Shown in pieces: positions 24,642 through 47,431 of a stretch of 64,000 nt of DNA. Under the pieces are notes generated by a model that made no database searches, had not been told where the DNA came from, and was given only the letters and a program-made list of their open reading frames with translations. Each line of letters begins with the position of its first letter. Positions within the stretch are counted from its first letter, which is position 1. The DNA comes from Chloroflexota bacterium (GTDB lineage Bacteria > Chloroflexota > UBA11872 > UBA12225), in NCBI GenBank assembly GCA_030447525.1, contig JAUJOR010000001.1, forward strand, positions 299,466 through 363,465, given 5' to 3'. The translations under genes and the position numbers were made by a program.

Positions 24642-24659
24642 CCTGCGACCGGGAGTTGC

Positions 24660-24973: not shown

Positions 24974-25549
24974 ATGTGGCCGGCCCTGGAGGCGATAGAC
25001 GCAATGGCTCCGACTGCCTTGCTGCAGTCCCTGGCGGCCGCCGCGGTGCCCTACGACATCCGCCGGCACGACCCGGCGCGCCACGCGCGACACCTTGCGG
25101 CCATCTGGGGCATCCCCCTGCCCGAGGCCGGACGGGCAACGCTGTTCGATGCCGGCGGGGCGCCGGTGCTTGTCCTCGTCCCTGCCGACCGCAAGGTGTC
25201 GGCGCCCCGACTGCGCAGCGTTCTCGGGGTCACAGACCTGCGAGTGCTGCGCGGCGATCGCGGGGTGGGTCGCACCGGCTGGCGCGGCCTGCCCGGAGAG
25301 CCGGGGGTCCTGCCCGCCGTGCCCCGCCTGTACGGGGCGCGCTGCCTGGTAGAGGAGCTCGTCCTGAACCGAGAACGCCTGGTGGTCTCGCTGGAAGCGG
25401 GTCGGTCGGTGGCCCTGCTCCCCGCCGACTACGTCCGGGTAGTAGGGGCGGCGACGGCTCGTTTCGCGGGTGGGACGAGGCTCCTGCCTGAAGGGGGCAT
25501 GATCACCGAAGTGACGTTGGTGGGCCGGGAAGGATTCGAACCTCCGTAG
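24974..25549 (+). CDS. YbaK/ProX-like aminoacyl-tRNA deacylase domain protein; its 3' end overlaps the tRNA-Tyr gene
   Basis: A YbaK-like pattern is seen (PVLVLVPADRKVSAPRLRSVLGV..., GVGRTGWRGLPGEPGVLP). The last approximately 10 codons (GREGFEPP) are a translation of the tRNA T-arm/acceptor on the opposite strand. Confidence 0.45.
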   Translation: MWPALEAIDAMAPTALLQSLAAAAVPYDIRRHDPARHARHLAAIWGIPLPEAGRATLFDAGGAPVLVLVPADRKVSAPRLRSVLGVTDLRVLRGDRGVGRTGWRGLPGEPGVLPAVPRLYGARCLVEELVLNRERLVVSLEAGRSVALLPADYVRVVGAATARFAGGTRLLPEGGMITEVTLVGREGFEPP

Positions 25550-25605
25550 GGCGTCAGCCCGTCAGATTTACAGTCTGATGCAATTGACCGCTCTGCCACC
25601 GACCC
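25518..25605 (-). tRNA. tRNA-Tyr (anticodon GTA) with a long variable arm and an encoded CCA end
   Basis: I folded it by hand. The acceptor is GGGTCGG/CCGGCCC. The D-arm is GCAG-AGCGGTCAA-TTGC. The anticodon stem TCAGA/TCTGA carries the loop CTGTAAA. The variable arm is GGGCTGACGCCC. The T-arm is GGAGG-TTCGAAT-CCTTC. The discriminator is A, followed by CCA. Confidence 0.85.
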
Positions 25606-26206: not shown

Positions 26207-26259
26207 TCGCCGTGTGCCGGGCCTTGCGCCGGCGGGCACTAATCCTATAGACGGATGCC

Positions 26260-27429
26260 GTGACCGGATCAGAGACGCACCGCGCGATCGAGACGGTCTG
26301 GAGGATCGAGTCTGTCAGGCTCATCGCCGGCCTCACGCGGGACGTGCGGGACATCGGGCTCGCCGAAGAGCTGGCCCAGGATGCGCTCGTCGCCGCGCTG
26401 GAGCAGTGGCCCGAGTCGGGCGTCCCGCGCAACCCGGGCGCCTGGCTCATGGCCGTTGCCCGGCGGCGCGCAATTGACCAGCTGCGTCGGCGGGCGATGC
26501 TGGGGCGCAAGCACGAGGCGCTGGGCCGCGAGCTGGAGGTTCAGCAGGAGCTGGCCGCGGACGATCTCGATGGCGCGATGGACGTCGATGACGACATCGG
26601 AGACGACCTGCTGCGTCTCATGTTCATCGCCTGTCATCCGGTGCTGTCGACCGAGGCGCGCGTTGCGCTCACGCTCCGCCTGCTCGGGGGGTTGACCACC
26701 GAGGAGATCGCGCGCCCCTTTCTCGCCCCGGAGCCGACGGTCGCCCAGCGGATCGTCCGCGCCAAGCGCACCCTGGCCGCGGCGCGTGTCCCGTTCGAGG
26801 TTCCCGGCGGAGCCGAGCGCGCCGCCCGTCTGTCTTCGGTGCTCGAGGTGCACTACCTCATCTTCAACGAGGGCTACGCGGCGACCGCCGGCGACGCCTG
26901 GATCCGACCGGCGCTGTGCGAGGAGGCGCTCCGCCTCGGGCGCGTCCTGGCCGAGCTGGCGCCGAATGAGCCGGAGGTCCACGGCCTGGTCGGGCTGATG
27001 GAGCTCCAGGCGTCGCGCTTACGCGCCCGGATCGGCCCATCGGGAGAGCCCGTTCTGCTCCTCGATCAAGACCGTGCCCGCTGGGATCAGCTCCTCATCC
27101 GCCGCGGGCTGACTGCGCTGGAGCGGGCCGCGGCGCTCGGCGGCGCCCTCGGCCCATACGCCCTGCAGGGGGCGATCGCCGACTGTCACGCACGTGCGCG
27201 GGACCCTGAGGAGACCGAGCGGCACGCACCTAGCCGCCAACCATACGTTGCCCCGGGTCGCACCAAGGGGGCGGAAAGGAGAGTTCCTCTAGAAGCCGGC
27301 GAAGCGTGCCGGCGGGGAGGGCGCCGGGGCGTCGGGGTCGAGACGCTCGGCAGAGCGCTTCGCCGCTTCGTTAAGGGAAACGGCGCGGTGCACCTCCAGG
27401 ACCATGTGGCGCACTCGCACCAACTCTGA
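26260..27429 (+). CDS. ECF-type RNA polymerase sigma factor with a long C-terminal extension (DUF6596-type, conserved FNEGY motif)
   Basis: Sigma2 and sigma4 regions are present (LAQDALVAALEQW, PVLSTEARVALTLRLLGGLTTEEIARPF), and the extension contains HYLIFNEGYAAT. The pairing with an upstream YciI-like gene is a conserved arrangement. Confidence 0.8.
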   Translation: MTGSETHRAIETVWRIESVRLIAGLTRDVRDIGLAEELAQDALVAALEQWPESGVPRNPGAWLMAVARRRAIDQLRRRAMLGRKHEALGRELEVQQELAADDLDGAMDVDDDIGDDLLRLMFIACHPVLSTEARVALTLRLLGGLTTEEIARPFLAPEPTVAQRIVRAKRTLAAARVPFEVPGGAERAARLSSVLEVHYLIFNEGYAATAGDAWIRPALCEEALRLGRVLAELAPNEPEVHGLVGLMELQASRLRARIGPSGEPVLLLDQDRARWDQLLIRRGLTALERAAALGGALGPYALQGAIADCHARARDPEETERHAPSRQPYVAPGRTKGAERRVPLEAGEACRRGGRRGVGVETLGRALRRFVKGNGAVHLQDHVAHSHQL

Positions 27430-30202: not shown

Positions 30203-30290
30203 GCGCGCCGGTCTCCTGTTCCAGGTGGCGCTCCGTTTGTGGAGCCCCCGGCTGCGAGGCCGGTGAGTCCCCCGCCCCTGGCGTAACTCC

Positions 30291-33017
30291 GTGACTGCGG
30301 TGGGCTCGGTGAGCGCTGCCAGGCAGGCTGATGCACCGGCCGGGGTGCTGGCCGGGATCTTCCTCCTTAGCCTGGCCGGTCTCCTGTTCCAGGTGGCGCT
30401 CACCCGGCTGGCCAGCGCCGCCCTGAACTACCACCTCGCCGTTCTCGCCGTGAGCGCCGGCGTGCTGGGGACCGGGGCCGGAGCGACCTGGGTCGCCTGC
30501 TGGCCACCGGGCTCGAGTCGGGACTCTCCCACCGCCCCGCCCGTACCCGGCGGCGGGGGCCGTGAGTGGGCTACCGGGGTGATGGCCGAGAACATCGCCC
30601 GGCGGCGCCTCGGCGCCCTGGCCGTTGGCACGGCCGGGGGCATCGCCGCCGTCGGGGCCGGGTTCGCCTGGGTGCCCCTGGGCCACCTGGGCGCCCCGGG
30701 GCTGCTGGCCCTGATCCTGGTCGCCTATCCCTTGCTGGCCGGGCCATACTTCTGCATTGGTGGGGCCGTGGCGCTGGCGCTGCGCACGTGGCCCCGCCTG
30801 GCCGGCCGGGCCTATGGGGCAGATCTCCTCGGTGCCGCTGCCGGCTGTCTCCTGGCCGTGCCAGTGATGGATGCCCTCGGGCCGCCCCTGGCCGTGTCCA
30901 TGGCCGCCTTCGCCGCCCTGGCCGGTGGCTTCCCGCTGCGCTGCCGGCGCGGGTCACCCCGCGAGGCCCCCCTGGCGCAGGGGGGCCTCGCGGCCCCAGT
31001 TGCCGCTCTCGCCGTCCTGGGCGGCGTCCTGTGGCCGGGTACGCCGAACGTCCTCCCCAACAAGCCCCTGGCCGTGTTCCTGGATGCCCGGCGGTTTCCA
31101 GGGGCGGGGCTGGAGCTCACGCGTTGGGATGCGACCTCTCGGGTAGACGTCTTTGTCGCCCCCGGGGCGTCGCTCCTCTGGCACCCGCCTTCTGAGGCGT
31201 CCGCGGGCGCCCCCGATGCTTTTGCACCCGGCGCCCCTCAGTGGGCGGGGCAGGCTCCAGGGGCGCGGCCGGTGGGGGCTCCCGAGATGCGGGAGGCTCC
31301 CGAGATGCGAGAGGCTCCCGAGATGCGAGAGGCTCCCGAGATGCGGGAGGCTCCCGAGATGCGGGGCATGACGATCGACGCCGACGCCCTGACCGCAGTC
31401 GTGCGCCTCCGGCCGGACCAGCGATTGCCGTTTGCCCGGCGTTTGCCGGCCAGCGTGGCCTACGCCCTCGCCCCGCGCCGGCGCGTCCTGGTCATCGGCC
31501 CCGGGGGCGGCGTCGACGTCGCCGCCGCCCTGGCGTACGGTGCCGAGCGAGTAGATGCCGTGGAGGTCAACCGGGGAGTCGCCCGGCTGATGCTGGGGCC
31601 CCTGGCAGACTTTAGCGGGGGCCTCTTCCTCGACCCGGCGGTGCGCCTGGTGGTGGACGAAGGGCGTACCTTTCTCCAGGCCTCGCCGCAGCGCTACGAC
31701 GCCATCGTCCTCACGGCGGTGGATAGCTGGGCGGCCCTGGCGGCCGGGTCCTACTCCCTGGCCGAGAGCTACCTGTACACCCGTGAGGCGATGGGCACGT
31801 ACCTTGATCGGCTGGGCGAGGGGGGCGTGCTGGCCATTAGCCGCTGGTACACCGCGCCCCCACGGGAGCTGCAGCGGCTGGCGCTGATGGCCGGCGACGT
31901 CCTGCAGGCCCGAGGCGTCCCACCGGCATCCGGGCGATTGCTCTTGAGGGCAGGGGACTTCGGGACGCTCATCGTCCGGCAGGGCCCCCTCACGCCGGAT
32001 GAGCTGGCTCGCGCCAGGGCCTTCGCCAAGGGCAATGGCTTCACCCTCTACGGCGGCGGCGGGCCCTCTGGCTTCCCCCAGCCGCCGTACCCTCCACCCG
32101 AGCCCTCCTCGCCGGGCCTCTTTGCGGGAGCTGCCCCGGCGGCTTTCCCGGATGGTACCGCTGGGGAGGCCTCCGGGACGGCTCCTGAGACGACGCCCAG
32201 GACGTTTCCGGCTGCCACGGACGACCGGCCCTTCTTCTTCGACTTCGTCCCTTGGTCAGACGTCCTGCGCGGGAGGGTTCCCCTGGCCACCCTGCCGCGG
32301 GGTCATGCCGTCCTGCTCCTGACGCTGGTGCAGGGGTTGTGCCTGGGCCTGGCCAGCGCCCTGCTGCCACGCCGGCGTCTCCCCGGATGGCTGGGGGCGC
32401 GGCCTGGGCTGCGCCTGGGGACGTACGCCGCTGCGGTTGGCCTGGGGTTCATGCTGGCGGAGCTCTCTCTCTTGCAGCGCCTTACCCTCCTACTGGGCCA
32501 ACCGGCCCTGTCGCTGGCGGTGACTTTGGGAGCGCTCTTGGGCGGGGCCGGCGCCGGCAGCGCCTTGTGGGCGCGATACTCGGGCCGGGTGGCGGCGCCG
32601 GCCTTGCTTGCGGGTGCCGCGGCGCTGCTCGCCGCGCACGCCGTGCTGCTGCCGGCGCTGTGGGGGCCGGCGCTGGCGTGGCCCCTGGCCGGCCGGATCA
32701 TTCTGGCCCTGGTGAGCCTGCTCCTCCCCGCCGTGTGCATGGGGCCGGCGCTGCCGGCAGGGGCGGCGGCGCTCGGGAGGAGTGACCCGCTGGTGCTCCC
32801 CTGGATGTGGGGCGTCAACGGGGCGGCCTCGGCCGCCGGGGCCGCCCTGGCGGTGATGCTGGCTATGGAGTGGGGACTGCGCGCCACGCTCCTCCTGGCA
32901 GGGGCCCTCTACCTCCTGGCCGCCGGCCTGCTGGCCGGCCATGGGACGGCGTCCGGCGCCGGGGCTGCGGGGGCTGCGGGGGCTGCGGGGGCTGCAGGAC
33001 TGGCGCCCATGCGGTAG
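30291..33017 (+). CDS. Polytopic membrane protein with a central spermidine-synthase-like (SpeE-fold, class I methyltransferase-like) domain
   Basis: An N-terminal bundle of about 7 TM helices and a C-terminal bundle of about 6 flank a core with the SpeE-like motifs VLVIGPGGGVDVAAALAYGAERVDAVEVNRGV and YDAIVLTAVDSW. It contains an in-frame (APEMRE)5 repeat and a C-terminal (GAA)n tract. Confidence 0.7.
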   Translation: MTAVGSVSAARQADAPAGVLAGIFLLSLAGLLFQVALTRLASAALNYHLAVLAVSAGVLGTGAGATWVACWPPGSSRDSPTAPPVPGGGGREWATGVMAENIARRRLGALAVGTAGGIAAVGAGFAWVPLGHLGAPGLLALILVAYPLLAGPYFCIGGAVALALRTWPRLAGRAYGADLLGAAAGCLLAVPVMDALGPPLAVSMAAFAALAGGFPLRCRRGSPREAPLAQGGLAAPVAALAVLGGVLWPGTPNVLPNKPLAVFLDARRFPGAGLELTRWDATSRVDVFVAPGASLLWHPPSEASAGAPDAFAPGAPQWAGQAPGARPVGAPEMREAPEMREAPEMREAPEMREAPEMRGMTIDADALTAVVRLRPDQRLPFARRLPASVAYALAPRRRVLVIGPGGGVDVAAALAYGAERVDAVEVNRGVARLMLGPLADFSGGLFLDPAVRLVVDEGRTFLQASPQRYDAIVLTAVDSWAALAAGSYSLAESYLYTREAMGTYLDRLGEGGVLAISRWYTAPPRELQRLALMAGDVLQARGVPPASGRLLLRAGDFGTLIVRQGPLTPDELARARAFAKGNGFTLYGGGGPSGFPQPPYPPPEPSSPGLFAGAAPAAFPDGTAGEASGTAPETTPRTFPAATDDRPFFFDFVPWSDVLRGRVPLATLPRGHAVLLLTLVQGLCLGLASALLPRRRLPGWLGARPGLRLGTYAAAVGLGFMLAELSLLQRLTLLLGQPALSLAVTLGALLGGAGAGSALWARYSGRVAAPALLAGAAALLAAHAVLLPALWGPALAWPLAGRIILALVSLLLPAVCMGPALPAGAAALGRSDPLVLPWMWGVNGAASAAGAALAVMLAMEWGLRATLLLAGALYLLAAGLLAGHGTASGAGAAGAAGAAGAAGLAPMR
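31278..31367 (+). repeat. In-frame tandem repeat, 5 x 18 bp (GCTCCCGAGATGCGRGAG), encoding (APEMRE)5 inside the SpeE-like membrane protein
   Basis: It is read directly; the units are nearly identical (R = G or A). Confidence 0.9.
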
Positions 33018-36581: not shown

Positions 36582-37298
36582 CTATCGGTAGCGCGTCAGG
36601 CGCCGCTCCAGCAGACCCACCAGCGCCCCCATGGGGAGGGTGAACACCAGGTAGCACAGCCCGACGAAGCCGTAGATCTCGTACGTCGCAAAGGTACGTG
36701 AGTTGATGATCTGGGCGTTATAGAGCAGCTCGGCGACGGCGATGCTGCTGGCCAGGCTAGTGTTCTTGAACAGGGCGATGGACAAGTTTCCCAGGGGGGG
36801 CACCGTGGCCGCAATGGCCTGGGGGAGGACAACGTAGCGCATGCCCTGCCCGAAGCTCATCCCCAGGGAGCGGGCGGCCTCGGACTGGCCACGGTCCACC
36901 GCCAGGATGCCGGACCGGATGGCCTCGGTGACGAAGGCCCCGGTATAGACGCCTAGGGCCAAAAACGCCGCCGTAAAGGCCGGCAGACGCACGCCAACGG
37001 TGGGGAGTCCAAAGTAAGCGAAAAACGTCTGCACCAGCAAGGGCGTGTTGCGCACGAACTCGACGTACGCCGTGCCCACGAAGCGCAAGGGACGCACCGG
37101 CACGCTGCGCAAGATGGCGAAGACGACCCCCAAGGCCAGGGCCAAGACCAGCGCCAGCAGGGCCAGCTGCACCGTGGCCAGCATTCCACTCAGCAGAAAG
37201 GGCAGGTTGGCGAGCACCGCCGTCCCGAAGGGGGGCGGGGCCCCGCCGCCGGCCAGGGCTGTAGGTGTGGCCTGGAGCATCGTCACATCCGCCGACAA
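36582..37298 (-). CDS. Amino-acid ABC transporter permease (HisQ/GlnP family)
   Basis: The EAA loop is AARSLGMSFGQGMRYVVLPQAIAATVPP. Confidence 0.8.
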   Translation of the reverse strand: MSADVTMLQATPTALAGGGAPPPFGTAVLANLPFLLSGMLATVQLALLALVLALALGVVFAILRSVPVRPLRFVGTAYVEFVRNTPLLVQTFFAYFGLPTVGVRLPAFTAAFLALGVYTGAFVTEAIRSGILAVDRGQSEAARSLGMSFGQGMRYVVLPQAIAATVPPLGNLSIALFKNTSLASSIAVAELLYNAQIINSRTFATYEIYGFVGLCYLVFTLPMGALVGLLERRLTRYR

Positions 37299-37374
37299 GA
37301 CGCCCCGCCGGGGCGCTCCTTTACTGGGTACTGGGCCGGTCCTTACCGAGGCGCTCCCTTACCGCCGCGATCCT

Positions 37375-38259
37375 TTACTGGGGCGGTTCGGGGACGGGGC
37401 CGAACTTACCCAGCCACTGCTGGTAGATGGCCTTCCAGCGCCCATTCCCCTTGATCCTCGCCAGCACCCCGTTGGTGAACTCGGTGAAGCCGGTGCTGGT
37501 CTTGGCGATCCCCAGGCCGTACGGCTCGTCGGTGAACTTGCCGCCGACCAGCTTGAGGCTGGGATCCTGGTCGGCGAAGCCGGCGAGGATGACGTCGTCC
37601 GTGCTGACGGCGTCGACACGGCCCTGCTGCAGGGCGGTGACGCACTCGGCGTAGCCGGGAAAGAGCACCTTCTGCACGGTGGGGGCGAACTTGGTGATGT
37701 TCTGCTCGCTGGTCGAGCCGGCGGCCGAGCAGATCGTCCGCTCCGGCCGGTCCAGATCCTGGATCCGGGCCACGGTGCTGTCCCGCTTCACCAGGAGCGT
37801 CTGCCCGGCCATGTAGTAGACGTCGGAAAAGTCGATCTGCTCCTTGCGCGCGTCGGTGATCGTCATAGTGGCGGCGACGATGTCCACGCCACCTTCTTGC
37901 AGGATGGGGATGCGCTGGGCGGAGGTGACCGGCTTCAGCTCCAGCCGCGCCGGGGAGGCGTCGCCGTTAAAGAGGGCCTTGGCCACCTCCCGGACGATGT
38001 CTACGTCGAAGCCTTCCAGCTGGTTGCTGCGCGGACTTAGGTAGCCGAACAGGGGCTGGTCCTGCTTGACCCCGGCCACCAGCCGGCCGCGCTGGACGAT
38101 CCTGGCCATGTAGCTGCCGGACGCAAAGGCCGGCACCGCCGTGCCCGCAGGCAGTCCGGCCGGCGCGGCCGACCCACCGCTCTGTCCACAGCCCGCCACG
38201 GCCACCACCAGGGGCAGGCCCCCCACGCCGCGCAAGAGCGCGCGTTTCGGTAGGCGCAT
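37375..38259 (-). CDS. Amino-acid ABC transporter substrate-binding lipoprotein (family 3 solute-binding protein)
   Basis: I place the start at the ATG at 38259, which is preceded by GAGGAGG. The signal and lipobox are MRLPKRALLRGVGGLPLVVAVAGC. SBP_bac_3-like motifs are present (DVDIVREVAKAL, QIDFSDVYY). Confidence 0.8.
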   Translation of the reverse strand: MRLPKRALLRGVGGLPLVVAVAGCGQSGGSAAPAGLPAGTAVPAFASGSYMARIVQRGRLVAGVKQDQPLFGYLSPRSNQLEGFDVDIVREVAKALFNGDASPARLELKPVTSAQRIPILQEGGVDIVAATMTITDARKEQIDFSDVYYMAGQTLLVKRDSTVARIQDLDRPERTICSAAGSTSEQNITKFAPTVQKVLFPGYAECVTALQQGRVDAVSTDDVILAGFADQDPSLKLVGGKFTDEPYGLGIAKTSTGFTEFTNGVLARIKGNGRWKAIYQQWLGKFGPVPEPPQ

Positions 38260-38615
38260 TGTTGACTCGTTCCTCCTCATTCGCTGATACACCGTCCCCA
38301 GTGGACGGCATTGCCCATGCCGTGAGCACAAGAGCCTTGTGACACCCGAGCTGACGTCTCTCGATAGGTCTCCCAGGTTGGGATCTGCCGCAGGACTGCC
38401 GGAGAATTGTACTGGCGCCCCCACTCACCGCCTGCCCTCAGGAGAGTCCATGCCGGACTCTGGGGGCAGGCGCGAGTTGCCGAGCAGGGCCCTCATGGAC
38501 CCTAGAGGCCAACCCGGCCATGCGTCAAGAGGGGCATAGTCGTCCTGGGTGCGGGGGGCGCCGGCAAGGGGTACCGTGGGGCGTACGGCGGGGTGCAGGG
38601 ACGGGATGGGGCCCC

Positions 38616-39398
38616 TCAGTGGGTGAGGATCTTGCTGAGGAACTGCCGCGTGCGCTCCTGCTGCGGCCGGGCAAAGAAGTCCGCCGGTGGGGCCTCCTCG
38701 ACCACGACGCCGCCGTCCATGAACATCACGCGCGAGGCCACTTCCCGGGCGAAGCCCATCTCATGGGTGACCACTACCATGGTCATGCCGTCACGTGCCA
38801 GGCCGCGGATGACGTCAAGCACCTCGTTGATCATCTCTGGGTCGAGGGCTGAGGTCGGCTCGTCGAAGAGCATGATGCGTGGGCTCATCGCCAGCCCGCG
38901 GGCGATGGCGACGCGCTGCTGCTGCCCCCCGGAGAGCTGCCCCGGGTAGACTCCGGCCTTGTCCGGGATGCCGACGCGCTCCAAGAGAGCATGCGCCGTC
39001 TTCTCTGCTTCCCCCCGCGAGACACCCTTCACCTTTTGCGGGGCCAGGGTGATATTGTCCAGCACCGTCAGGTGGGGGAACAGGTGGAACTGCTGGAACA
39101 CCATGATGATCTGGGCGCGTAGCTGGTTGACGTTCGTCTTCGGGTCGTGCACCGCCTGGCCATAGACGTACACCTGGCCGCTGTCAATCGTGTCCAGGCG
39201 GTTGATGCAGCGTAGGAGCGTGCTTTTCCCTGAGCCGCTGGGGCCACAGATGACCACCACGTCGCCGGGGGCGACGCTCCCGGAGATGCCTTTGAGCACC
39301 TCCAGCCGCCCAAAGCGCTTGTGCACCGCGTCGAAGACGATGGCGGCATCCGTAGTTGCAGGCGAGGCGATGGGCTTCGCGTCAGCGCTCGTCGCCAC
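38616..39398 (-). CDS. Amino-acid ABC transporter ATP-binding protein (GlnQ/HisP-like)
   Basis: Walker A is GPSGSGKST, the ABC signature is [15 protein letters not shown], Walker B is [12 protein letters not shown], and an H-loop is present. Confidence 0.9.
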
Positions 39399-40344
39399 GG
39401 CAGAGGGCCTCCTGCAGCTGGGGAAGGTTCTCGAAGACGTAATCCGGTTGCGTGGGGCTGGCGGCGAGGTCGGCCCGCTGGGCCACCCCGGTAAGCACCA
39501 GGATCGTGGTCACCCCGGCCCGTTGCCCGGCGAGGATGTCTGTCAGCAGGCCGTCACCCACGATAGCCGTCTCGGCCGGCGACGCTCCAATGCGCTGCAT
39601 GGCGACCTCGAGCATCGTGGCCGCCGGCTTGCCGACCACCATCGGGCTGACTCCGGTGGCGGCCTGCAGGTAGGCCAGGGTGGCCCCGTTCCCCGGCAGA
39701 AATCCCCCCTCGGTGGGGAGCGATAGGTCAGGGTTGGTGGCGATCAACCGCGCCCCGGCGCGAATGGCAAGGCAGGCCCGCTGCAATCGCTCATAGGTCA
39801 GGCGCCGGTCGAGGCCGCAGACGACCACCTCCGGTTCGCGGTCAACCAGGCGAAAGCCGTGTCCCAGCAGGGCCCGCACCAGGCCCTCTTCCCCGATGGC
39901 CATGACCCGGGCCCCCGGCGCCAGGTACCCCTGCAAGTACACCGCCGTCGCTTCAGAGGAGGTCAGCACTCCCTCCGGCCCCACGGCTATTCCCATGCCC
40001 GCGAGCTTGGCGGCGTACTGGTCGGCCGAGAGGGTGGAGTTGTTGGTGATGCACTGGCAGCGGCGCCCGCTGCGGCGCAGATAGCTGAAGAACTCGGCTG
40101 CCCCCGGCAAGGCGGTGCTCCCGGTGTAGACGACGCCGTCCAAGTCGAGCAGGATGGCGCGCAGGGCGCTCAGCGAGAGGGCCGAGCCGGGGCGTGACCT
40201 GTCGCCGCCACCGCCGGCGGGTGCGGTGCTGACGCTGCGGGCGTGCCTGATAGGAGATGCGGTATCGGCGTCCACGGGCCGGGAGAGTCTAGCACCCGGC
40301 GCCGCCGGCGGACGGACAAGGGGGCAGGCCGCGCTCGACGTCAC
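39382..40344 (-). CDS. HAD-superfamily hydrolase, subfamily IIA (NagD/CUT1-like sugar phosphatase)
   Basis: The motifs are LLDLDGVVY (motif I), CITNNS (motif II) and [24 protein letters not shown] (motifs III and IV). It overlaps the ATPase start by 17 bp, so it is probably the first gene of the operon. Confidence 0.75.
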
Positions 40345-40443
40345 CCTGATTCGGCACCACCACGTTCGGCCGCTACCTGGACGGCGCCCCTGAGCCCGGG
40401 AAACGTGAGGATCCGGCTGAGAGCATGACCGGCAGCTCCAGGT

Positions 40444-40884
40444 CTACGAGGTCCCGGAGTGCAGCGGATTCTCCCAGCGCAGGTCAGAGAACCGGGCGAA
40501 GTCGCCGTCGGTGGAGCAGAGGACGAGGCCGTGCTCGATGGCCAGTGCTGCAAGGTGGGTATCTGGTACCAGGTTCGCGCCCGCGCCCTGGCGCCGAAAC
40601 AGCAGGTCCAGGGTGGCGCGGTGGCGGTCGGTCGGCTGCGGGACCCACACGGGCGGGCAGTCGAGCCACTCCTCCACCTGGCCCCAGGCCCCGGCGACGG
40701 GCTGGGGTCGCTCGAAGACGCGCGGGTTGGATACCAGGCGCACGAACGCCAGGAGGCTGGGCCAGGGCAGCCCTACCGGTGCCACCCCGTTCAGCCGCGC
40801 GTCGAGCCAGGCCCGCGCGGCGGGGTGCTGCGGGACCGTGGTGACATGCGCGTAGACCAACAGGTTTGCATCCACCAGGATCAC
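40444..40884 (-). CDS. vapC: PIN-domain ribonuclease toxin VapC
   Basis: The GTG start overlaps the vapB TGA in a GTGA arrangement. The N-terminus is (M)ILVDANLLVYAHV, and the PIN acidic residues fall in the D5, ...DTHLAALAIEHGLVLCSTDGDFARF pattern. Confidence 0.75.
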   Translation of the reverse strand: MILVDANLLVYAHVTTVPQHPAARAWLDARLNGVAPVGLPWPSLLAFVRLVSNPRVFERPQPVAGAWGQVEEWLDCPPVWVPQPTDRHRATLDLLFRRQGAGANLVPDTHLAALAIEHGLVLCSTDGDFARFSDLRWENPLHSGTS

Positions 40885-41129
40885 CGGAAGGTCTCCCCTT
40901 CCGCGGCGGCCAGAGCCGCCGCGACGTCGTCCAGGCTGCCGACGAGGCAACGGCCGAGCGATACGGTAGCGGTGCGGTAGGGTCTCCTTGGTCGCGCCGG
41001 CGCCATCATCTGCTGCAGCCCGTAGCGCAGGGCCTCGTTCACCGCCTGCTTCAAGCTGAGGCCACGGCCCTCGCGGACGCGATCGAGGAGGGCCGCCACG
41101 TCGTCGTCGAGCGTCAGCGTCGTTCTCAC
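40881..41129 (-). CDS. vapB: VapB-family antitoxin (ribbon-helix-helix / DUF2191-like)
   Basis: It is 82 aa (MRTTLTLDDDVAALLDRVREGRGLSLKQAVNEALR...) with a GTG start. It lies immediately upstream of and translationally coupled to vapC. Confidence 0.7.
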   Translation of the reverse strand: MRTTLTLDDDVAALLDRVREGRGLSLKQAVNEALRYGLQQMMAPARPRRPYRTATVSLGRCLVGSLDDVAAALAAAEGETFR

Positions 41130-41142
41130 AGGTCCAAGGATA

Positions 41143-41174
41143 CATCAAGACATCGATCAGATGATGTCTTGATG
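41143..41174. promoter_or_regulatory. 12-bp inverted repeat CATCAAGACATC-N8-GATGTCTTGATG, 14 bp upstream of the vapB start; candidate VapB autoregulatory operator
   Basis: It is read directly in the sequence, within the divergent vapB/dprA promoter region. Confidence 0.4.
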
Positions 41175-41314
41175 ACTATCCTCGCTTGGAAGAGCAGGAC
41201 GTGACCCCTGTGGCGCGTTGACCACCGCCATCACCAGGGCCCGAACAACAGCGTCCGAATGATCGAAGGAGGCGCCGAGCACAGGGCTGGCGGGGTCGAT
41301 CGGGCGGGGCTACC

Positions 41315-41451
41315 ATGAGTCCCCGCATGGACGGCATTGCGGAGAGCCGGTACGAGCGGGAGCCGGTGGAGCCCCCGGTGGCGCCGCCACCGGGGGGGCG
41401 CCTCATAGACGACGACGAGCGGGGCTTCTGGGTGGCCTTTAACCGCACCCC
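41315..41451 (+). pseudogene. dprA: dprA 5' fragment (codons 1 to about 46) severed from the rest of the gene by the IS insertion
   Basis: The fragment MSPRMDGIAESRYEREPVEPPVAPPPGGRLIDDDERGFWVAFNRTPG joins in frame to the segment beginning at 43149 (...VGAARFRRLLARFG) once the IS and one copy of CCCCGG are removed. Confidence 0.6.
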
Positions 41452-43148
41452 CGGGGCCTGTTGCCAAAGTCGGGTATGGTGGTCAGGAGGAGCACGGTGC
41501 GGGGTACGCGGGCGCCCCGTGCACGCGACGGGAACGGCCGCTGGCCCGACCGGAGCTCGAACCGGGGACAGGCCCGCTTGAGAAGGGGGGGAGGGCCCAA
41601 CGCCGCACCCCCATGGCCGGGCTGGGGCGCGCCGTTGGGCCAGCTTCTTGACGTCGTACGCGATGGCGCTGCCCAGCGCCTGGATCAGCACCTTGTCTCG
41701 CCCCCGACACTGCGCCCGCCGCAGCCCGTGACGGTCCTTCAGTTCGGCGTTGGCCGTCTCGACCCAGTACGCGCGGGCGCGCCGGCTGCGCTTGGCGGGT
41801 GGCGTGCGGAGATAGGCGACGACTCGGTCGCGCAGTCCCCCATCGTCCGGGCGCACGAGGGTGCGGGCGGCCGCCGGGTCGCAGCACTGCGCCTTGACCG
41901 GGCACGCCCCGCAGACCTTCGGCCGCCCGCGGTAGATCAGGCCACCGGCCGCCCCGGCAGTGCGCGAGGAGCCCTGGCGGGTGAGGAGCCTGCCCGGTGG
42001 GACACCGATAGCGATTAGCGATCGGCGCGAACTCGTACACGAAGCGGTCGGCAGAGTAGTCACCCCGGTCGCTCATGGTGCTGTGGGGCGGGATGCTCGC
42101 CCGGATGCCCTGCTGCTCCAGCGCCACGTAGTTGGCGTAGGTCCCGTACTTGGTATCCGCCACCACTTCGGCCACCGTACGCCCGGTCGTGCCTCGATGC
42201 TCCTTGAGCAGCCGGTCCAGCAGGTGCTCGTCGGCAACCTCGCCCGGAGTCACGTCCAGCGCGGTGATGAGACGCGCCCGCCCGCCGTCCACGCCGACGT
42301 GCGCCTTGTAATAGAAGGCGTAGGGGACCCCTCGCGCTTGACCAGCCCCGCGTCGGGATCGGTGCGACTGGTCACCAAGGCGTTCACCGGCCCCTGGTCC
42401 CCGTTGGGCACGTCCTCCGGACCGGCCACGTGCAGCGACGGGCGCGCCGCCGCGCCCGCCGTGAGGCCACCGGCCGAGTCCGGCGCCGGCTGCTCCCCCT
42501 CGCCGGGAGGGGCCGCTGGCGGCGTGGGATCGGAGACGGGATCTCCTGCCACACCGTCGCGACGTACCCGGCCGCGCTCGGCAGCTGAGTGAGCAGCGCC
42601 TGCGCGCCGGCCGACCCAAGACTGGCATTGGCCTTGACCAGCGTGCTGTCCACGTAGAGGACGTCGCCCCGCACCAGGCCGGCCCGCTCGCACTGCCGCA
42701 CCACCTCGGTGAAAGCCGCCTGGTACACGGGCAGGCCGAAGCGCGCCCGCGCCTTGGACAGCATCGAGTGGTCCGGCGGCGTCTCGTCGAGGTCGTACCC
42801 CAAGAACCAGCGGAAGGCCAGGTGCAGGCGCGCCTCCTCGGCCAGCCGCCGCTCCGACGTGATGCCGTAGAGGTACCCGAGCAGCATCAGCTTGAACAGC
42901 ACCACCGGATCGACCCCCGGCCGGCCGGTGTGGCTGTAGAACCGCGCCGTCAGCCGCGCACAAAGCTGAGGTCGAGCGTCCCCGATGCGCGCAGCAAGTG
43001 GTCGCTCGGGACCTGCGCTTCTAGCGAGAACTCGTAGAAGCGCTTCGGCGTGAATTCCTTACGGCCCAACATCGTGCCCCACCTCGAACAGGGGAGCCAC
43101 CATCCTACTCAGACCTCGGCCGGTCCGGCCAGAGTTTGGCAACAGGCC
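41452..43148 (-). mobile_element. IS1182/IS5-family insertion sequence (1697 bp) with terminal inverted repeats GGCCTGTTGCCAAA / GGCCTGTTTGCCAAA and flanking 6-bp direct repeats CCCCGG
   Basis: The inverted repeats lie at 41452-41465 and 43134-43148. The target-site duplications lie at 41446-41451 and 43149-43154. Excising the element precisely restores a continuous dprA reading frame. Confidence 0.75.
41470..43072 (-). pseudogene. IS1182/IS5-family DDE transposase inactivated by frameshifts (three reading-frame segments)
   Basis: The N-terminus MLGRKEFTPKRFYEFSLEAQVPSDHLLRASGTLDLSFVRG is followed by a stop then a shift. It continues in another frame as RLTARFYSHTGRPGVDPVVLFKLMLLGYLYGITSERRLAEE (DUF772 / InsH N-terminal domain). 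The middle segment, in a second frame, is YKAHVGVDGGRARLITALDVTPGEVADEHLL. The C-terminal segment, in a third frame, is CGACPVKAQCC...AYWVETANAELKDRHGLRRAQCRGRDKVLIQALGSAIAYDVKKL. There is a 1-nt deletion at CGCGGCTGACG, where CGCCGGCTGACG is expected. Confidence 0.7.
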
Positions 43149-44250
43149 CCCCGGAGTTGGCGCGGCCCGCTTCCGGCGCCTCCTGGCCCGCTTCGGCACG
43201 CTGGCCCAGGCCTGGGGGGCCAGCCCGGGGCAGCTGGCGCTGGCGGGGCTCGACCGGCGGACGCTGGAGACCTTGACCGCCCTGCGCCGCCGGCTCGATC
43301 CGGCGCAGGAGCTGGAGCGAGCCCGCCGCTACGGCGCCGAGGTGCTCACCTGGGGGGATGCCCATTACCCCCGGCGGCTGGCCGCCATCCCTGACCCCCC
43401 GCCGGTGCTCTTCCTGCGCGGAACGCTCCTCCCGGGAGATGAGCGGGCCCTGGCCGTGGTAGGGACGCGCCGCCCGACGTACTATGGGCGCGACGTTGCC
43501 GAGCGCCTCTCGGCCGCCGTTGCCGCTGCCGGGTTGACCATCGTCAGCGGGCTGGCCAAGGGGGTAGACACGCACGCCCACCGCGGGGCCCTCAGCGCCG
43601 GCGGGCGGACGATCGCCGTCCTGGGCCACGGCCTGCAGACGGTCTACCCGCCGGAGAACCGCCGCCTGGCCGAGGCCGTGGCCGAGCGCGGGGCACTCTT
43701 GACGGAATACGCCCCCGGCGTTGGCCCGGCCGCGGAGAACTTCCCGCCCCGCAACCGGATCATCTCCGGTCTCGCCGCCGGCGTGCTGATCGTCGAGGCC
43801 GGCGAGCACTCCGGGGCCTTGATCACCAGCCGGTACGCCGCCGAGCAGGGGCGCGACGTCTTCGCCGTCCCCGGCCCGATCAGCTCCTTGGCCAGCCGGG
43901 GCTGCCATCGGTTGATCCAGGACGGGGCCAAGCTGGTCACCGGCGCCGCCGACGTCCTCGAGGAGATCGAGCCCCACTCGGAGCGGGCGGCCCCCCGGCA
44001 GATGGTCCTCGACCTCTCACCGGGGGCCGGCCCCGGCCCGATCGACGGGGCCGGGGGGGAGGGGGCATCGACTCCACAGGAAGATGGGCTCGTCCGGCTG
44101 CTGGCCGAGGTGGGCCAGCCGGCCCACGTCGACCAGCTGGCCCGCCGAATGGCGGTACCGGTGCAGGAGATCAGCGGGACGCTGGCCTGCCTGGAAGTGC
44201 AGGGGCGCGTGCGCCACGTCGGCGGGATGCGCTACAACATTTCCGGGTAA
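43149..44250 (+). pseudogene. dprA: dprA 3' portion (DNA-processing protein A, Rossmann-like DprA domain plus C-terminal DML1-like domain), displaced from its start codon and promoter by the IS
   Basis: The motifs ...PGVGAARFRRLLARFG..., VVGTRRPTYYGRDVAERLSAAVAAAGLTIVSGLAKGVDTHAHRGAL and VLIVEAGEHSGALITSRYAAEQGRDVFAVPG are present. The ORF track shows only an internal TTG at 43273. Confidence 0.7.
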
Positions 44251-44405
44251 CGACGCCGGGGGGCCGCCCCCGGGTGCCGGGCTGGAACGGGCCCGATCCT
44301 CGAAGGGCGTCCTCCCGTGGGGGACGGGAACTCTCAAGCGGCTCGCTTCCGTATATGAGGGTAGTAGGCCACAGACAGCAGACAGAGGGGATAGCACAGA
44401 GCACC

Positions 44406-45800
<1,395 letters not shown>

Positions 45801-45801
45801 C

Positions 45802-46749
45802 GTGTTCAACATCATCGGGCGGCGACGCTTCTACTTTCTCCTCTCCGGCCTGCTGATCGCGCCCGGGATCGTCGCCCTGCTCCTCTGGGGTCTGCGTCTG
45901 GGCGTAGACTTCACCGGCGGCAGCCTGTTGGAGGTGCGCCTGGCCCAATCCCCTCCGCCGGCGGCGGTGCGCGACGTGTTCGTCGAGAACGGCGTCACCG
46001 AGGTCAGCGTGGTGACGAGCACCGACCCCTCCGGCCGGTCAAGCTACAACATCCGCTTGCCGGCGCTGGAGACGCCGCGCAAGAACGAGATCCTGGCCCG
46101 GCTAGAGGAACGCTTCGGCACGGTCACGGAGGACCGCTTCGAGACCGTGGGACCGGCGGTCAGCGCCGAGACGACGCGCAACGCCCTGTACGCCACCGGA
46201 CTGGCGGCGCTGGCCATCCTGGGATACCTCACCTTCGCCTTCCGCCAGGTGCCCAAGCCGTGGCGCTACGGCGCCTGCGCCGTGGTCGCCTTGCTGCACG
46301 ACACCCTGCTCGTGCTTGGCCTGTGGGCCATCTTCGGGCGCTTCTTCGGCCTGGAAGTGGACTCCCTGTTCGTCACCGCCATCTTGACGGTGATCGGATT
46401 CTCGGTGCACGACACGATTGTCGTCTTTGACCGCATTCGCGAGAACGTGCGCCGCTTCCATGGGGAGTCGTTCGAGCGGATCGCCAACTTTAGCGTGAAT
46501 CAGACGCTGGACCGGTCGATCAACACCGGCCTGGCCACGATCTTTACCTTGACGGCGCTGCTCTTGATGGGTGGCAGCACCATCCGCAACTTCGTGCTCG
46601 TGCTGCTCATTGGGATCATCTCCGGGACGTACTCCTCCATCTTCAACGCCACCTGCCTGCTGGTGGTGTGGGAGAACGGTGACCTGACTCGCTTCTGGCA
46701 GCGCCTCACCGGGCGCCGACGGCCGGTGCCCGTCGCCGCCGGCGCCTGA
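45802..46749 (+). CDS. secF: Protein translocase subunit SecF
   Basis: The GTG at 45802 lies 1 nt after the secD TGA. The sequence runs VFNIIGRRRFYFLLSG...GLAAL...FSVHDTIVVFDRIREN. Confidence 0.85.
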   Translation: MFNIIGRRRFYFLLSGLLIAPGIVALLLWGLRLGVDFTGGSLLEVRLAQSPPPAAVRDVFVENGVTEVSVVTSTDPSGRSSYNIRLPALETPRKNEILARLEERFGTVTEDRFETVGPAVSAETTRNALYATGLAALAILGYLTFAFRQVPKPWRYGACAVVALLHDTLLVLGLWAIFGRFFGLEVDSLFVTAILTVIGFSVHDTIVVFDRIRENVRRFHGESFERIANFSVNQTLDRSINTGLATIFTLTALLLMGGSTIRNFVLVLLIGIISGTYSSIFNATCLLVVWENGDLTRFWQRLTGRRRPVPVAAGA

Positions 46750-46765
46750 GGCGGGTGGCGAGGAC

Positions 46766-47431
46766 TTACGTGTTGGGGGTGCCCGGAGGCTCGGCCTCTA
46801 GACCCCCCGGGGTGAGGCCGGCCGGTGTTGGAGGCTCGCCCACGGGTTCGAGCGTGCCTGCAGTGACGACGTGGGCCTGGATGGCCCCTTGCATCGCCAT
46901 CGTCTCCTGGGCGGCACGGGCCTCGCCGGCTGCGCCGACACGGACGGCGACGATCGTGTCGCCCTGGTCGAGGCGCAAGGCGTAGCGCATCGCCAGGTCG
47001 TGAGGCAGGCCCCGAGTGCGCTGCACGAGCGCGCCGGCGGTGGCCCCAAGCGCGGCCCCCACCAGCACTTCCAGGGCCCTGACCATGCCACTGGGGACGA
47101 GATCGCGTACGGCCAGCGGGGCCAGCGGGGCCAGCGGGTCGGCCCCCATTTCCGGGAGTAGCTGAGGCACCAGAAAGACGGCCAGGGCGGTGAGCAGGCC
47201 ACCGCCGATGGCGCCTATCAAAGCGGAGACGCTGATGCGCTCGGTGCGATTCACCAGACGGGCCGGCTCTCCCACCGGCAGCACGGGGACGCGTCCCGCG
47301 AGGAGGAGGCGCCCCCCACCGGCGCGGCCCACGGCGGAGATTGCCTCCGGCGTGAGACCGTCATCGAGCAAGGCGCGCGTCGCCTGCTCGGCCTCACTCA
47401 GTGTGGTGAAGGCCCCGATGACTAACGGCAA
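46766..47431 (-). CDS. General-stress-protein YflT-like (DUF1269-type) membrane protein with two YflT-like repeats
   Basis: The first repeat is MPLVIGAFTTLSEAEQATRALLDDGLTPEAISAV. It has central TM helices and a second similar module (DTIVAVRVGAAGEARAAQETMAMQGA). An in-frame (GCCAGCGGG)3 repeat encodes LAPLAPLA. Confidence 0.5.
   Translation of the reverse strand: MPLVIGAFTTLSEAEQATRALLDDGLTPEAISAVGRAGGGRLLLAGRVPVLPVGEPARLVNRTERISVSALIGAIGGGLLTALAVFLVPQLLPEMGADPLAPLAPLAVRDLVPSGMVRALEVLVGAALGATAGALVQRTRGLPHDLAMRYALRLDQGDTIVAVRVGAAGEARAAQETMAMQGAIQAHVVTAGTLEPVGEPPTPAGLTPGGLEAEPPGTPNT

What the first reader, a model, noticed from the sequence alone, without database searches (positions are those of the whole stretch)
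41315..44250. dprA split at codon ~46 by an IS1182/IS5-family element with a clean 6-bp target duplication; the IS transposase is itself frameshifted
The 5' part of dprA (41315-41451, ...RGFWVAFNRTPG) and the rest of the gene (43149 onward, VGAARFRRLLARFG...) become one uninterrupted DprA reading frame if 41452-43148 plus one CCCCGG copy are removed. The insert has 14/15-bp terminal inverted repeats (GGCCTGTT(T)GCCAAA). It encodes an IS1182-like transposase (MLGRKEFTPKRFYEF..., DUF772, DDE C-terminus). That transposase is broken into three frames, with a visible 1-nt deletion at FVRG*. So the IS is probably immobile and the dprA disruption is fixed. Because DprA loads RecA on incoming ssDNA, this predicts loss or impairment of natural transformation in this strain. 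Alternatively, expression of a truncated DprA that lacks its N-terminal SAM-like domain could occur from a start within the IS end, since an in-frame TTG exists at 43135.
Basis: seen in the sequence. Interest (0 to 1): 0.7.

Follow-up and report, generated by a model that had tools for sequence, protein, structure and literature searches.

The report
Mobile element inserted in dprA gene
A 1.7-kb IS1182-family jumping gene has recently landed inside the DNA-uptake gene dprA of one strain of a Chloroflexota bacterium; this is an ordinary event, and the apparent "broken" state of the element's own gene is most likely a sequencing-assembly artefact.

Summary
Window 41455-43148 is a 1694-bp IS1182-family insertion sequence with perfect 14-bp terminal inverted repeats (16 bp if the flanking GG/CC are counted). 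It interrupts dprA at codon 46/47, inside the N-terminal HhH domain. Removing exactly 1700 bp restores a 411-aa DprA with all three DprA domains. Two independent genomes carry the empty site TTTAACCGCACCCCCGGAGTTGGC. One of them (GCA_030446645.1) is 99.6% identical to the window on both flanks, so the insertion is strain-specific and recent.

- The duplication cannot be fixed at 6 bp. It is 2-7 bp, depending on where the G/C-rich ends are drawn.
- The claimed in-frame TTG at 43135 does not exist. The TTG is at 43136 and out of frame; the first canonical in-frame start is TTG 43273.
- The "dead transposase" is doubtful. The window copy has at least 4 core frame shifts. At least seven other near-identical copies on large NCBI contigs each carry different frame shifts (34 frame shifts against 37 amino-acid mismatches). 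The three testable window shifts are private to this copy, and unique genes are clean. This fits unpolished long-read errors in a multi-copy repeat. The IS is probably intact and active.

Interest is low.

The parts
41315..41454 (+). dprA 5' fragment. It holds codons 1-46 plus 2 nt of codon 47. Orthologues L004 and L092 are called from the second ATG, at 41327. In the window the frame runs on into the IS as an 88-aa ORF ending at 41581.
   Evidence: The aligned orthologues share ...ERGFWVAFNRTPG|VGAARF....
41449..41454 (.). Left copy of the duplicated target CCCCGG. Depending on where the IS ends are drawn, the true duplication may be CC, CCCG, CCCCGG or CCCCCGG.
   Evidence: The BLAST pieces of L092 overlap by 7 nt at the junction.
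41455..43148 (-). IS1182-family insertion sequence, 1694 bp (1698 bp if the ends are GGGGCC...GGCCCC). The transposase gene is on the minus strand.
41455..41468 (+). Terminal inverted repeat GGCCTGTTGCCAAA at the transposase-3' end of the IS.
43135..43148 (-). Terminal inverted repeat GGCCTGTTGCCAAA at the transposase-5' end of the IS.
42953..43072 (-). Transposase segment 1 (MLGRKEFTPKRFYEF...LSFVRG*). It ends at a 1-nt deletion, about 42955, relative to intact relatives and to other copies (FVR-RLTARF).
42543..42952 (-). Transposase segment 2 (DUF772 region, ...RLTARFYSHTGRPG...YVDST...VWQE). It ends at a 1-nt deletion, about 42543 (GAGAAT>GAGAT).
42328..42542 (-). Transposase segment 3 (variable linker, ...PVSDPTPP...SRTDPDAGLVKREG). 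It ends at a 1-nt deletion in a G run, about 42328.
41989..42327 (-). Transposase segment 4 (DDE_Tnp_1 region, VPYAFYYKAHVGVDGG...VVADTKYG...RCPTGQ). It ends at a 1-nt insertion, about 41988.
41455..41988 (-). Transposase segment 5 (DDE_Tnp_1_6 region, ...LTRQGSS...WVETANAELKDRHGL...KKLAQ, then an unalignable tail with further 1-nt differences). There is no stop codon inside the IS in this frame.
43149..43154 (.). Right copy of the duplicated target CCCCGG.
43155..44250 (+). dprA 3' part. It holds the rest of the HhH domain, the Rossmann-like DNA_processg_A domain and the winged-helix domain. The frame is open back to 43054. The first canonical in-frame start is TTG 43273.

Best explanation
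A multi-copy, probably still active IS1182-family insertion sequence transposed very recently into codon 46/47 of dprA in this Chloroflexota strain. It duplicated 2-7 bp of a CCCCCGG target and split the gene inside its N-terminal HhH domain. In this strain dprA is therefore a fresh insertional null or hypomorph.

The many frame shifts in the element's transposase gene are most likely residual indel errors of a long-read assembly that short-read polishing could not fix inside a repeated sequence. They are probably not real lesions, so the element need not be dead and the insertion need not be fixed.

Shown: the insertion, its ends, its family, the empty site in a near-identical genome, and the copy-specific frame shifts. 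Inferred: that the frame shifts are technical, that the IS is active, and any effect on transformation.
For: Insertion and restoration:
- establish the element, its repeats and the restored DprA.
- The empty site is found in L004 and in L092 = GCA_030446645.1. L092 is 99.64% and 99.57% identical over 4.7 kb and 4.0 kb on the two sides, and the window has exactly 1700 extra bp.
- dprA shows no decay. Its omega on the window-L004 pair is 0.40, against 0.26-0.29 among intact orthologues. There are no stops or shifts in 1.2 kb.

Family:
- NF033551 scores above its cut-off.
- Pfam finds DUF772, DDE_Tnp_1 and DDE_Tnp_1_6.
- The closest intact homologues are 78% identical.

Artefact reading of the frame shifts:
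- The window's 173-aa frameshifted ORF is identical to P0241 on a 623,666-bp NCBI contig.
- Seven more fragments of the same IS lie on that contig and on contigs of 334,513, 325,493, 211,718, 126,126 and 65,330 bp.
- A frameshift-aware alignment to the window IS gives 96.7-98.4% amino-acid identity, but 34 frame shifts against 37 amino-acid mismatches over 1346 residues. The shift positions differ from copy to copy.
- The window's shifts at IS nt about 193, 606 and 821 are read straight through by every other copy that covers them.
- No intact protein more than 78% identical exists in the database. All known copies of a recently mobile IS would then be broken, which is implausible.
- Unique genes in the window are intact, with ORFs up to 1245 aa and full-length Pfam matches.
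- Where the window and L092 differ by indels, the window has the intact reading frame.
- Short-read polishing is known to leave errors in repeats (PMC8812927, abstract).
Against: No reads and no DNA of the other copies could be examined, so the artefact reading rests on protein fragments. It also rests on the assumption that the large NCBI contigs belong to the window's assembly. That is proven only for the 623,666-bp contig, and only by identity of one ORF.

Not all window indels lie in homopolymers. FS1 is in GCGGCGG and FS4 is an extra C in GGCTCC.

The indel test against dprA alone is weak: five or so indels in 1.7 kb of IS against none in 1.2 kb of dprA gives p of about 0.04-0.1 under equal rates.

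A defective copy could in principle have been mobilised in trans.
Confidence: 0.75

Rival explanations
1. The frame shifts are real. The copy in dprA is a dead, non-autonomous IS. Either it was mobilised in trans or it decayed in place. The disruption is then effectively permanent.
For: The sequence as given has at least 4 core frame shifts relative to two intact relatives. Some are not in homopolymers. The IRs are intact, so trans-mobilisation is mechanistically possible.
Against: The three testable window shifts are private to this copy, yet the insertion is younger than the 0.4% divergence from L092.

Across copies, indels are about as frequent as amino-acid substitutions, far above what pseudogene decay normally gives (general knowledge).

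No intact donor of transposase more than 78% identical is on record.

dprA itself shows no decay.
Confidence: 0.2
2. DprA function is retained. On this view an N-terminally truncated DprA lacking the HhH/SAM-like domain is made from a start at or near the IS end.
For: The dprA frame is open from 43054. TTG 43273 would give a 325-aa protein that keeps the whole DNA_processg_A and winged-helix domains.
Against: The TTG claimed at 43135 is at 43136 and out of frame.

There is no ATG, GTG or TTG in frame between 43054 and 43273.

No sigma-70-like promoter was found on either strand of 40900-44400.

The GGAG before TTG 43273 is only 3 nt from it.

The transposase gene is divergent from dprA, so there is no read-through from it.
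Confidence: 0.1
3. The insertion is not a property of the whole population. On this view it is an assembly join, or a minority or majority allele in a mixed sample, with intact dprA coexisting.
For: An intact allele with 99.6% identical flanks exists in another public assembly. The IS is a multi-copy repeat, and such repeats are where assemblers make wrong joins (general knowledge).
Against: Both junctions are exact. They carry a target duplication, and restoration is perfect to the base. A mis-join would not produce that.
Confidence: 0.05

Closest known systems
IS1182 family insertion sequences (e.g. IS1182, IS1272, ISBma2)
   Same: The repaired transposase matches NCBIfam NF033551 above its cut-off. 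It has the DUF772 + DDE_Tnp_1 + DDE_Tnp_1_6 layout. The element is about 1.7 kb with one transposase gene between short terminal IRs. Plasmid-borne genes annotated as IS1182 or ISBma2 transposases are about 35% identical.
   Different: The nearest intact protein is only 78% identical, so this would be a new IS by ISfinder's usual rule (from memory). IS1272 replaces inverted-repeat targets and makes no duplication (PMC5678879). Here the target is not replaced, and 2-7 bp are duplicated.
IS5 family
   Same: There is distant transposase similarity. NF033581 scores 98 bits, and the DDE_Tnp_1 domain is shared.
   Different: All IS5 NCBIfam models score below their cut-offs (98 against 140, 49 against 275, 32 against 140).
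Insertional inactivation of competence genes such as dprA by IS elements
   Same: A housekeeping recombination-mediator gene is split by a mobile element, with the empty site present in sister strains.
   Different: No phenotype is known here, and it is not known whether this Chloroflexota lineage is naturally transformable. No other competence gene lies in the window.
Residual indel errors in repeats of short-read-polished long-read assemblies (Polypolish paper, PMC8812927)
   Same: Indels are confined to a multi-copy repeat while unique sequence is clean, and the indels differ in every copy.
   Different: The sequencing technology and polishing history of this assembly are unknown to me. The match is by pattern only.

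Membership tests
IS1182 family | Transposase matches the family's curated model above its cut-off | tested here: met
   The frame-repaired translation scores 318.7 bits on NF033551 against a cut-off of 270. The intact relative P0121 scores 351.6 bits.
IS1182 family | Domain layout: N-terminal DUF772 plus DDE domain (DDE_Tnp_1 / DDE_Tnp_1_6) | tested here: met
   PF05598 (E 9e-19), PF01609 (E 4e-6) and PF13751 (E 2e-13) are found on successive ORF pieces.
IS1182 family | Conserved acidic residues of the DDE catalytic site are retained | tested here: met
   The window translation keeps YVDST, VVADTKYG and WVETANAELK. These correspond to the invariant columns D143, D315 and E445/E450 of 16 intact homologues. 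Which E is catalytic is inferred.
IS1182 family | Terminal inverted repeats bounding an element of about 1.3-2.0 kb (size range from memory of ISfinder) | tested here: met
   There are 14-16 bp perfect IRs and the element is 1694-1698 bp. The same IR core is seen in relatives L007-L013 and L089-L091.
IS1182 family | One uninterrupted transposase reading frame | tested here: not met
   The sequence as given has at least 4 frame shifts. This is probably an assembly artefact, so the failure bears on sequence quality or copy integrity, not on family assignment.
IS1182 family | Characteristic target duplication | tested here: inconclusive
   The family is heterogeneous. IS1272 makes none and targets inverted repeats (PMC5678879). 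Here the duplication is 2-7 bp depending on end placement. The relatives' metagenomic flanks gave no clear duplication.
IS5 family | Transposase matches an IS5 curated model above its cut-off | tested here: not met
   NF033581 scores 98.3 against 140, NF033578 49.1 against 275, and NF033579 31.7 against 140.
DprA (DNA-processing protein A) | Matches the dprA equivalog model and has the DprA_N / Rossmann-like / winged-helix layout | tested here: met
   The restored protein scores 256.6 bits on TIGR00732 against a cut-off of 191.15. It also matches PF21102, PF02481 and PF17782. It is 94% identical to P0001.
DprA (DNA-processing protein A) | Intact gene in this genome | tested here: not met
   The gene is split by 1700 bp at codon 46/47. 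It is intact in L004, L005, L006 and L092.
DprA (DNA-processing protein A) | Role in natural transformation in this organism | not testable with these tools
   No phenotype data exist, and there are no other competence genes in the window.

The most novel reading that the evidence does not exclude
In this IS1182 clade the transposase reading frame may be open at the element's end and closed by a stop codon supplied by the target at a fixed distance. That would imply target choice for a YTAR-like or palindromic motif about 13-16 bp outside the joint.

Evidence: 26 of 30 homologues that read through the IR as F-G-N-x-P stop exactly 4 codons later, with variable residues. The window copy does the same (FGNRP-RGCG-TAA). 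In the window those 15 nt are proven dprA DNA.
Probability: 0.15. Interest if true: 0.4.

Novelty: new member of a known kind. Interest (0 to 1): 0.15.

Why it matters
The biology is routine: an IS knocked out a gene in one strain. There are two practical lessons.

First, this strain probably lacks functional DprA while a sister genome with 99.6% identical flanks keeps it. If the lineage is transformable, this is a natural isogenic pair.

Second, frameshifted transposases in long-read assemblies should not be read as dead elements until the repeat has been re-sequenced from unique flanks. Here that caution reverses the inference that the insertion is fixed.

Tried and rejected
- The genome-contig scan with restored DprA found only relatives at 39-42% identity and was useless for the empty site. 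The protein search plus contig look-ups did the job instead.
Only L009, L011 and L013 were close, and all three are partial.
- Contig look-ups for P0130 and P0132 returned no DNA.
- The look-up for P0242, a second copy of this IS, found nothing and used the last look-up. No DNA of other copies could therefore be read.
- Plasmid tblastn gave only IS1182 genes at about 35% identity.
- I looked for a target duplication around the relatives' elements, at both the inner and the outer candidate ends. None was convincing.
- I searched the window for the relatives' outer motif CTARATGCTTSCA and found no match. It is therefore not a repeat family of this genome region.
- I considered programmed frameshifting. 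I rejected it because the shifts go in both directions, relatives have a single ORF, and the shifts are copy-specific.
- I considered uniform sequencing error. I rejected it because unique genes are intact.
- The dN/dS branch test for neutral decay of dprA had too few changes to be decisive.
Full report
**What is in the sequence**

The + strand reads ATG at 41315, then 46 codons ending ...TTT AAC CGC ACC CCC GG. From 41455 it continues GGCCTGTTGCCAAAGTC.... At the other side it reads ...GAGTTTGGCAACAGGCC up to 43148, followed by CCCCGGAGTTGGCGCGGCC....

The 14-mer GGCCTGTTGCCAAA occurs only twice in the 64-kb window, once on each strand, at 41455-41468 and 43135-43148. That holds even when two mismatches are allowed. 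The repeat finder extends the pair to 22 nt at 91% complementarity. CCCCGG flanks the element on both sides, at 41449-41454 and 43149-43154.

Deleting 41455-43154 (1700 bp) gives an open 411-codon frame. Its product matches DprA_N (residues 33-80, so across the junction), DNA_processg_A and DprA_WH in Pfam. It also matches the dprA equivalog TIGR00732 above the cut-off.

**The empty site exists in nature**

A protein search with the restored DprA found intact orthologues at 94%, 78% and 74% identity. Their contigs (L004, L005, L006) all read FNRTPG[VI]GAAR without interruption. L004 has the predicted DNA TTTAACCGCACCCCCGGAGTTGGCGCGGCC base for base.

A look-up of the window's SecD protein found contig JAUJMX010000020.1 of assembly GCA_030446645.1 (L092). 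It is 99.64% identical to window 36697-41454 and 99.57% identical to window 43148-47109. It carries an intact 407-aa dprA and lacks exactly the 1700 bp.

The insertion is therefore real, precise and specific to this strain. It is also younger than about 0.4% sequence divergence. In agreement, the two dprA halves show no stop, no shift and no clear relaxation of selection. Omega is 0.40 on the window-L004 pair against 0.26-0.29 among intact orthologues, and the counts are small.

**What the element is**

The minus strand encodes pieces that match DUF772, DDE_Tnp_1 and DDE_Tnp_1_6. The frame-repaired translation scores 318.7 bits on NCBIfam NF033551 (IS1182 family, cut-off 270). All IS5 models stay below their cut-offs. 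The conserved YVDST, ADTKYG and ETANAELK motifs are present.

The closest intact proteins are 78% identical metagenomic transposases of 512-570 aa. Plasmid-borne genes annotated as IS1182 transposases are about 35% identical. It is a new member of the IS1182 family.

**Ends and duplication**

The junctions lie in G/C runs: ACCCCCGG|GGCC on one side and GGCC|CCCCGGA on the other. All relatives for which an end could be read conserve at least GGGCC, and often GGGGCC, at that end. The IS may therefore be 1694, 1696 or 1698 bp, with a duplication of 6, 4 or 2 bp. The BLAST pieces of L092 even overlap by 7 nt. 'A clean 6-bp duplication' is one of several equally valid descriptions.

The IS1182 family is heterogeneous in this respect. 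IS1272 inserts into inverted-repeat targets without any duplication, and some members are said to target palindromes (PMC5678879).

**The transposase frame shifts**

I compared the window copy with two intact relatives at the DNA level (L007, L008). The window copy differs as follows:
- a 1-nt deletion at FVR|RLTARF;
- a 1-nt deletion after WQE;
- a 1-nt deletion in a G run at KREG|VPYAF;
- a 1-nt insertion after RCPTGQ;
- further 1-nt differences in the C-terminal tail.

The reading path is frame 1>0>2>1>2.

**Why I think the shifts are not biological**

The 173-aa ORF created by the shifts (42384-42905, minus strand) is 100% identical to a gene product on an NCBI contig of 623,666 bp. That contig is presumably the window's source. 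Seven further fragments of the same IS lie on that contig and on contigs of 334,513, 325,493, 211,718, 126,126 and 65,330 bp.

I aligned them to the window IS with frame shifts allowed. They are 96.7-98.4% identical in amino acids but need 2, 5, 10, 4, 7, 1 and 5 frame shifts, at positions that differ from copy to copy. In total that is 34 shifts against 37 amino-acid mismatches over 1346 residues. Several are out-and-back slips within 8-20 codons.

The window's own shifts near IS nt 193, 606 and 821 are read straight through by every other copy that covers them. They are therefore private to a copy that inserted only recently. No intact protein closer than 78% is on record. If the shifts were real, every known copy of a recently mobile element would be dead.

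By contrast, the unique genes of the window are intact and give full-length domain matches. These include purB, purD, guaA, a 1245-aa Mfd, SecD and others. Where the window and L092 differ by indels, it is L092 that has the broken HAD-hydrolase gene.

Errors that survive only inside repeats are the known weakness of short-read polishing of long-read assemblies (PMC8812927). I put about 0.75-0.8 on the artefact reading and about 0.2 on real lesions.

**Consequences for dprA**

The split falls in the HhH motif of the N-terminal domain. That TTG starts at 43136 and is one base out of frame. In the dprA frame the sequence is open from 43054, but the first ATG, GTG or TTG is TTG 43273, which is residue 87 of the restored protein.

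That start would give a 325-aa protein that keeps the Rossmann-like and winged-helix domains. However, no promoter-like site was found, its GGAG lies only 3 nt upstream, and the transposase gene points away from it. A rescue is possible but unsupported.

Loss of natural transformation follows from the established role of DprA in loading RecA on incoming single strands. This applies only if the lineage is competent, and no other competence gene is in the window.

**Comparison and verdict**

This is an ordinary insertional disruption by a new member of a known IS family, in an uncultured-type Chloroflexota genome. The best named relatives of DprA are Chloroflexota MAGs.

The useful results are these:
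- the proof of the empty site in a near-identical genome;
- the correction of the start-codon claim;
- the ambiguity of the duplication length;
- the likelihood that the 'dead' transposase is an assembly artefact, which removes the basis for calling the insertion fixed.

**An unexplained detail**

In relatives, inverted symmetry continues about 16 nt beyond the conserved IR core, and it holds the transposase stop codon. Of 30 homologues that read through the IR as FGNxP, 26 stop exactly four codons later. The window copy would do the same (RGCG, then TAA at 41439-41441 on the minus strand), although there this DNA is proven target. This may be coincidence, or it may reflect target choice; I could not tell.

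Noticed in passing
window 41439-41454; L007, L008, L089, L090, L091 ends: In the closest intact relatives, inverted symmetry runs about 16 nt beyond the conserved IR core (for example CTARATGCTTSCAnnG) and contains the transposase stop codon. Of 30 homologues that read through the IR as FGNxP, 26 stop exactly 4 codons later. The window copy would do the same (FGNRP-RGCG-TAA), but there the 15 nt are dprA target DNA. This may be coincidence, or it may be target preference.
   Followed up: partly
window 39382-40443 (-) versus L092 2683-3661: The near-identical assembly GCA_030446645.1 differs from the window by six deletion events, one of them 3 nt and three of them in G or C runs. In L092 its HAD-family hydrolase is called as two genes (86 + 187 aa). 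The window has one open frame, and the L006 orthologue is 271 aa. This suggests indel errors, or real lesions, in that other assembly.
   Followed up: partly
window 40444-41148 (-) and 40881-41129 (-): A PIN-domain plus RHH (VapBC-like toxin-antitoxin) pair lies directly upstream of dprA and diverges from it. The same arrangement is seen in L005 and L092.
   Followed up: no
outside the window, same 623,666-bp NCBI contig (P0331), and other large contigs (P0242-P0244, P0262, P0337, P0357): At least seven more gene fragments of the same IS exist, so the element is multi-copy in the source genome or in very close relatives. None of them is inside this window.
   Followed up: partly
window 22527-24659 (-) and 30267-33014 (+): Two long ORFs with coding-like GC3 (711 and 916 aa) have no Pfam match at E<=1e-5.
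   Followed up: no
window 41594-41641: An 18-nt-arm inverted repeat (89% complementary, 12-nt loop) lies inside the IS, in the poorly conserved region downstream of the KKLAQ motif of the transposase. It might be a terminator or a structural element of the IS end.
   Followed up: no
window 25521-25605 (-): There is a single tRNA gene (Rfam RF00005, 58.5 bits). It is the only Rfam match in the window.
   Followed up: no
window 26251-27426 (+): This is an ECF-type sigma factor (Sigma70_r2 / r4_2) fused to DUF6596.
   Followed up: no
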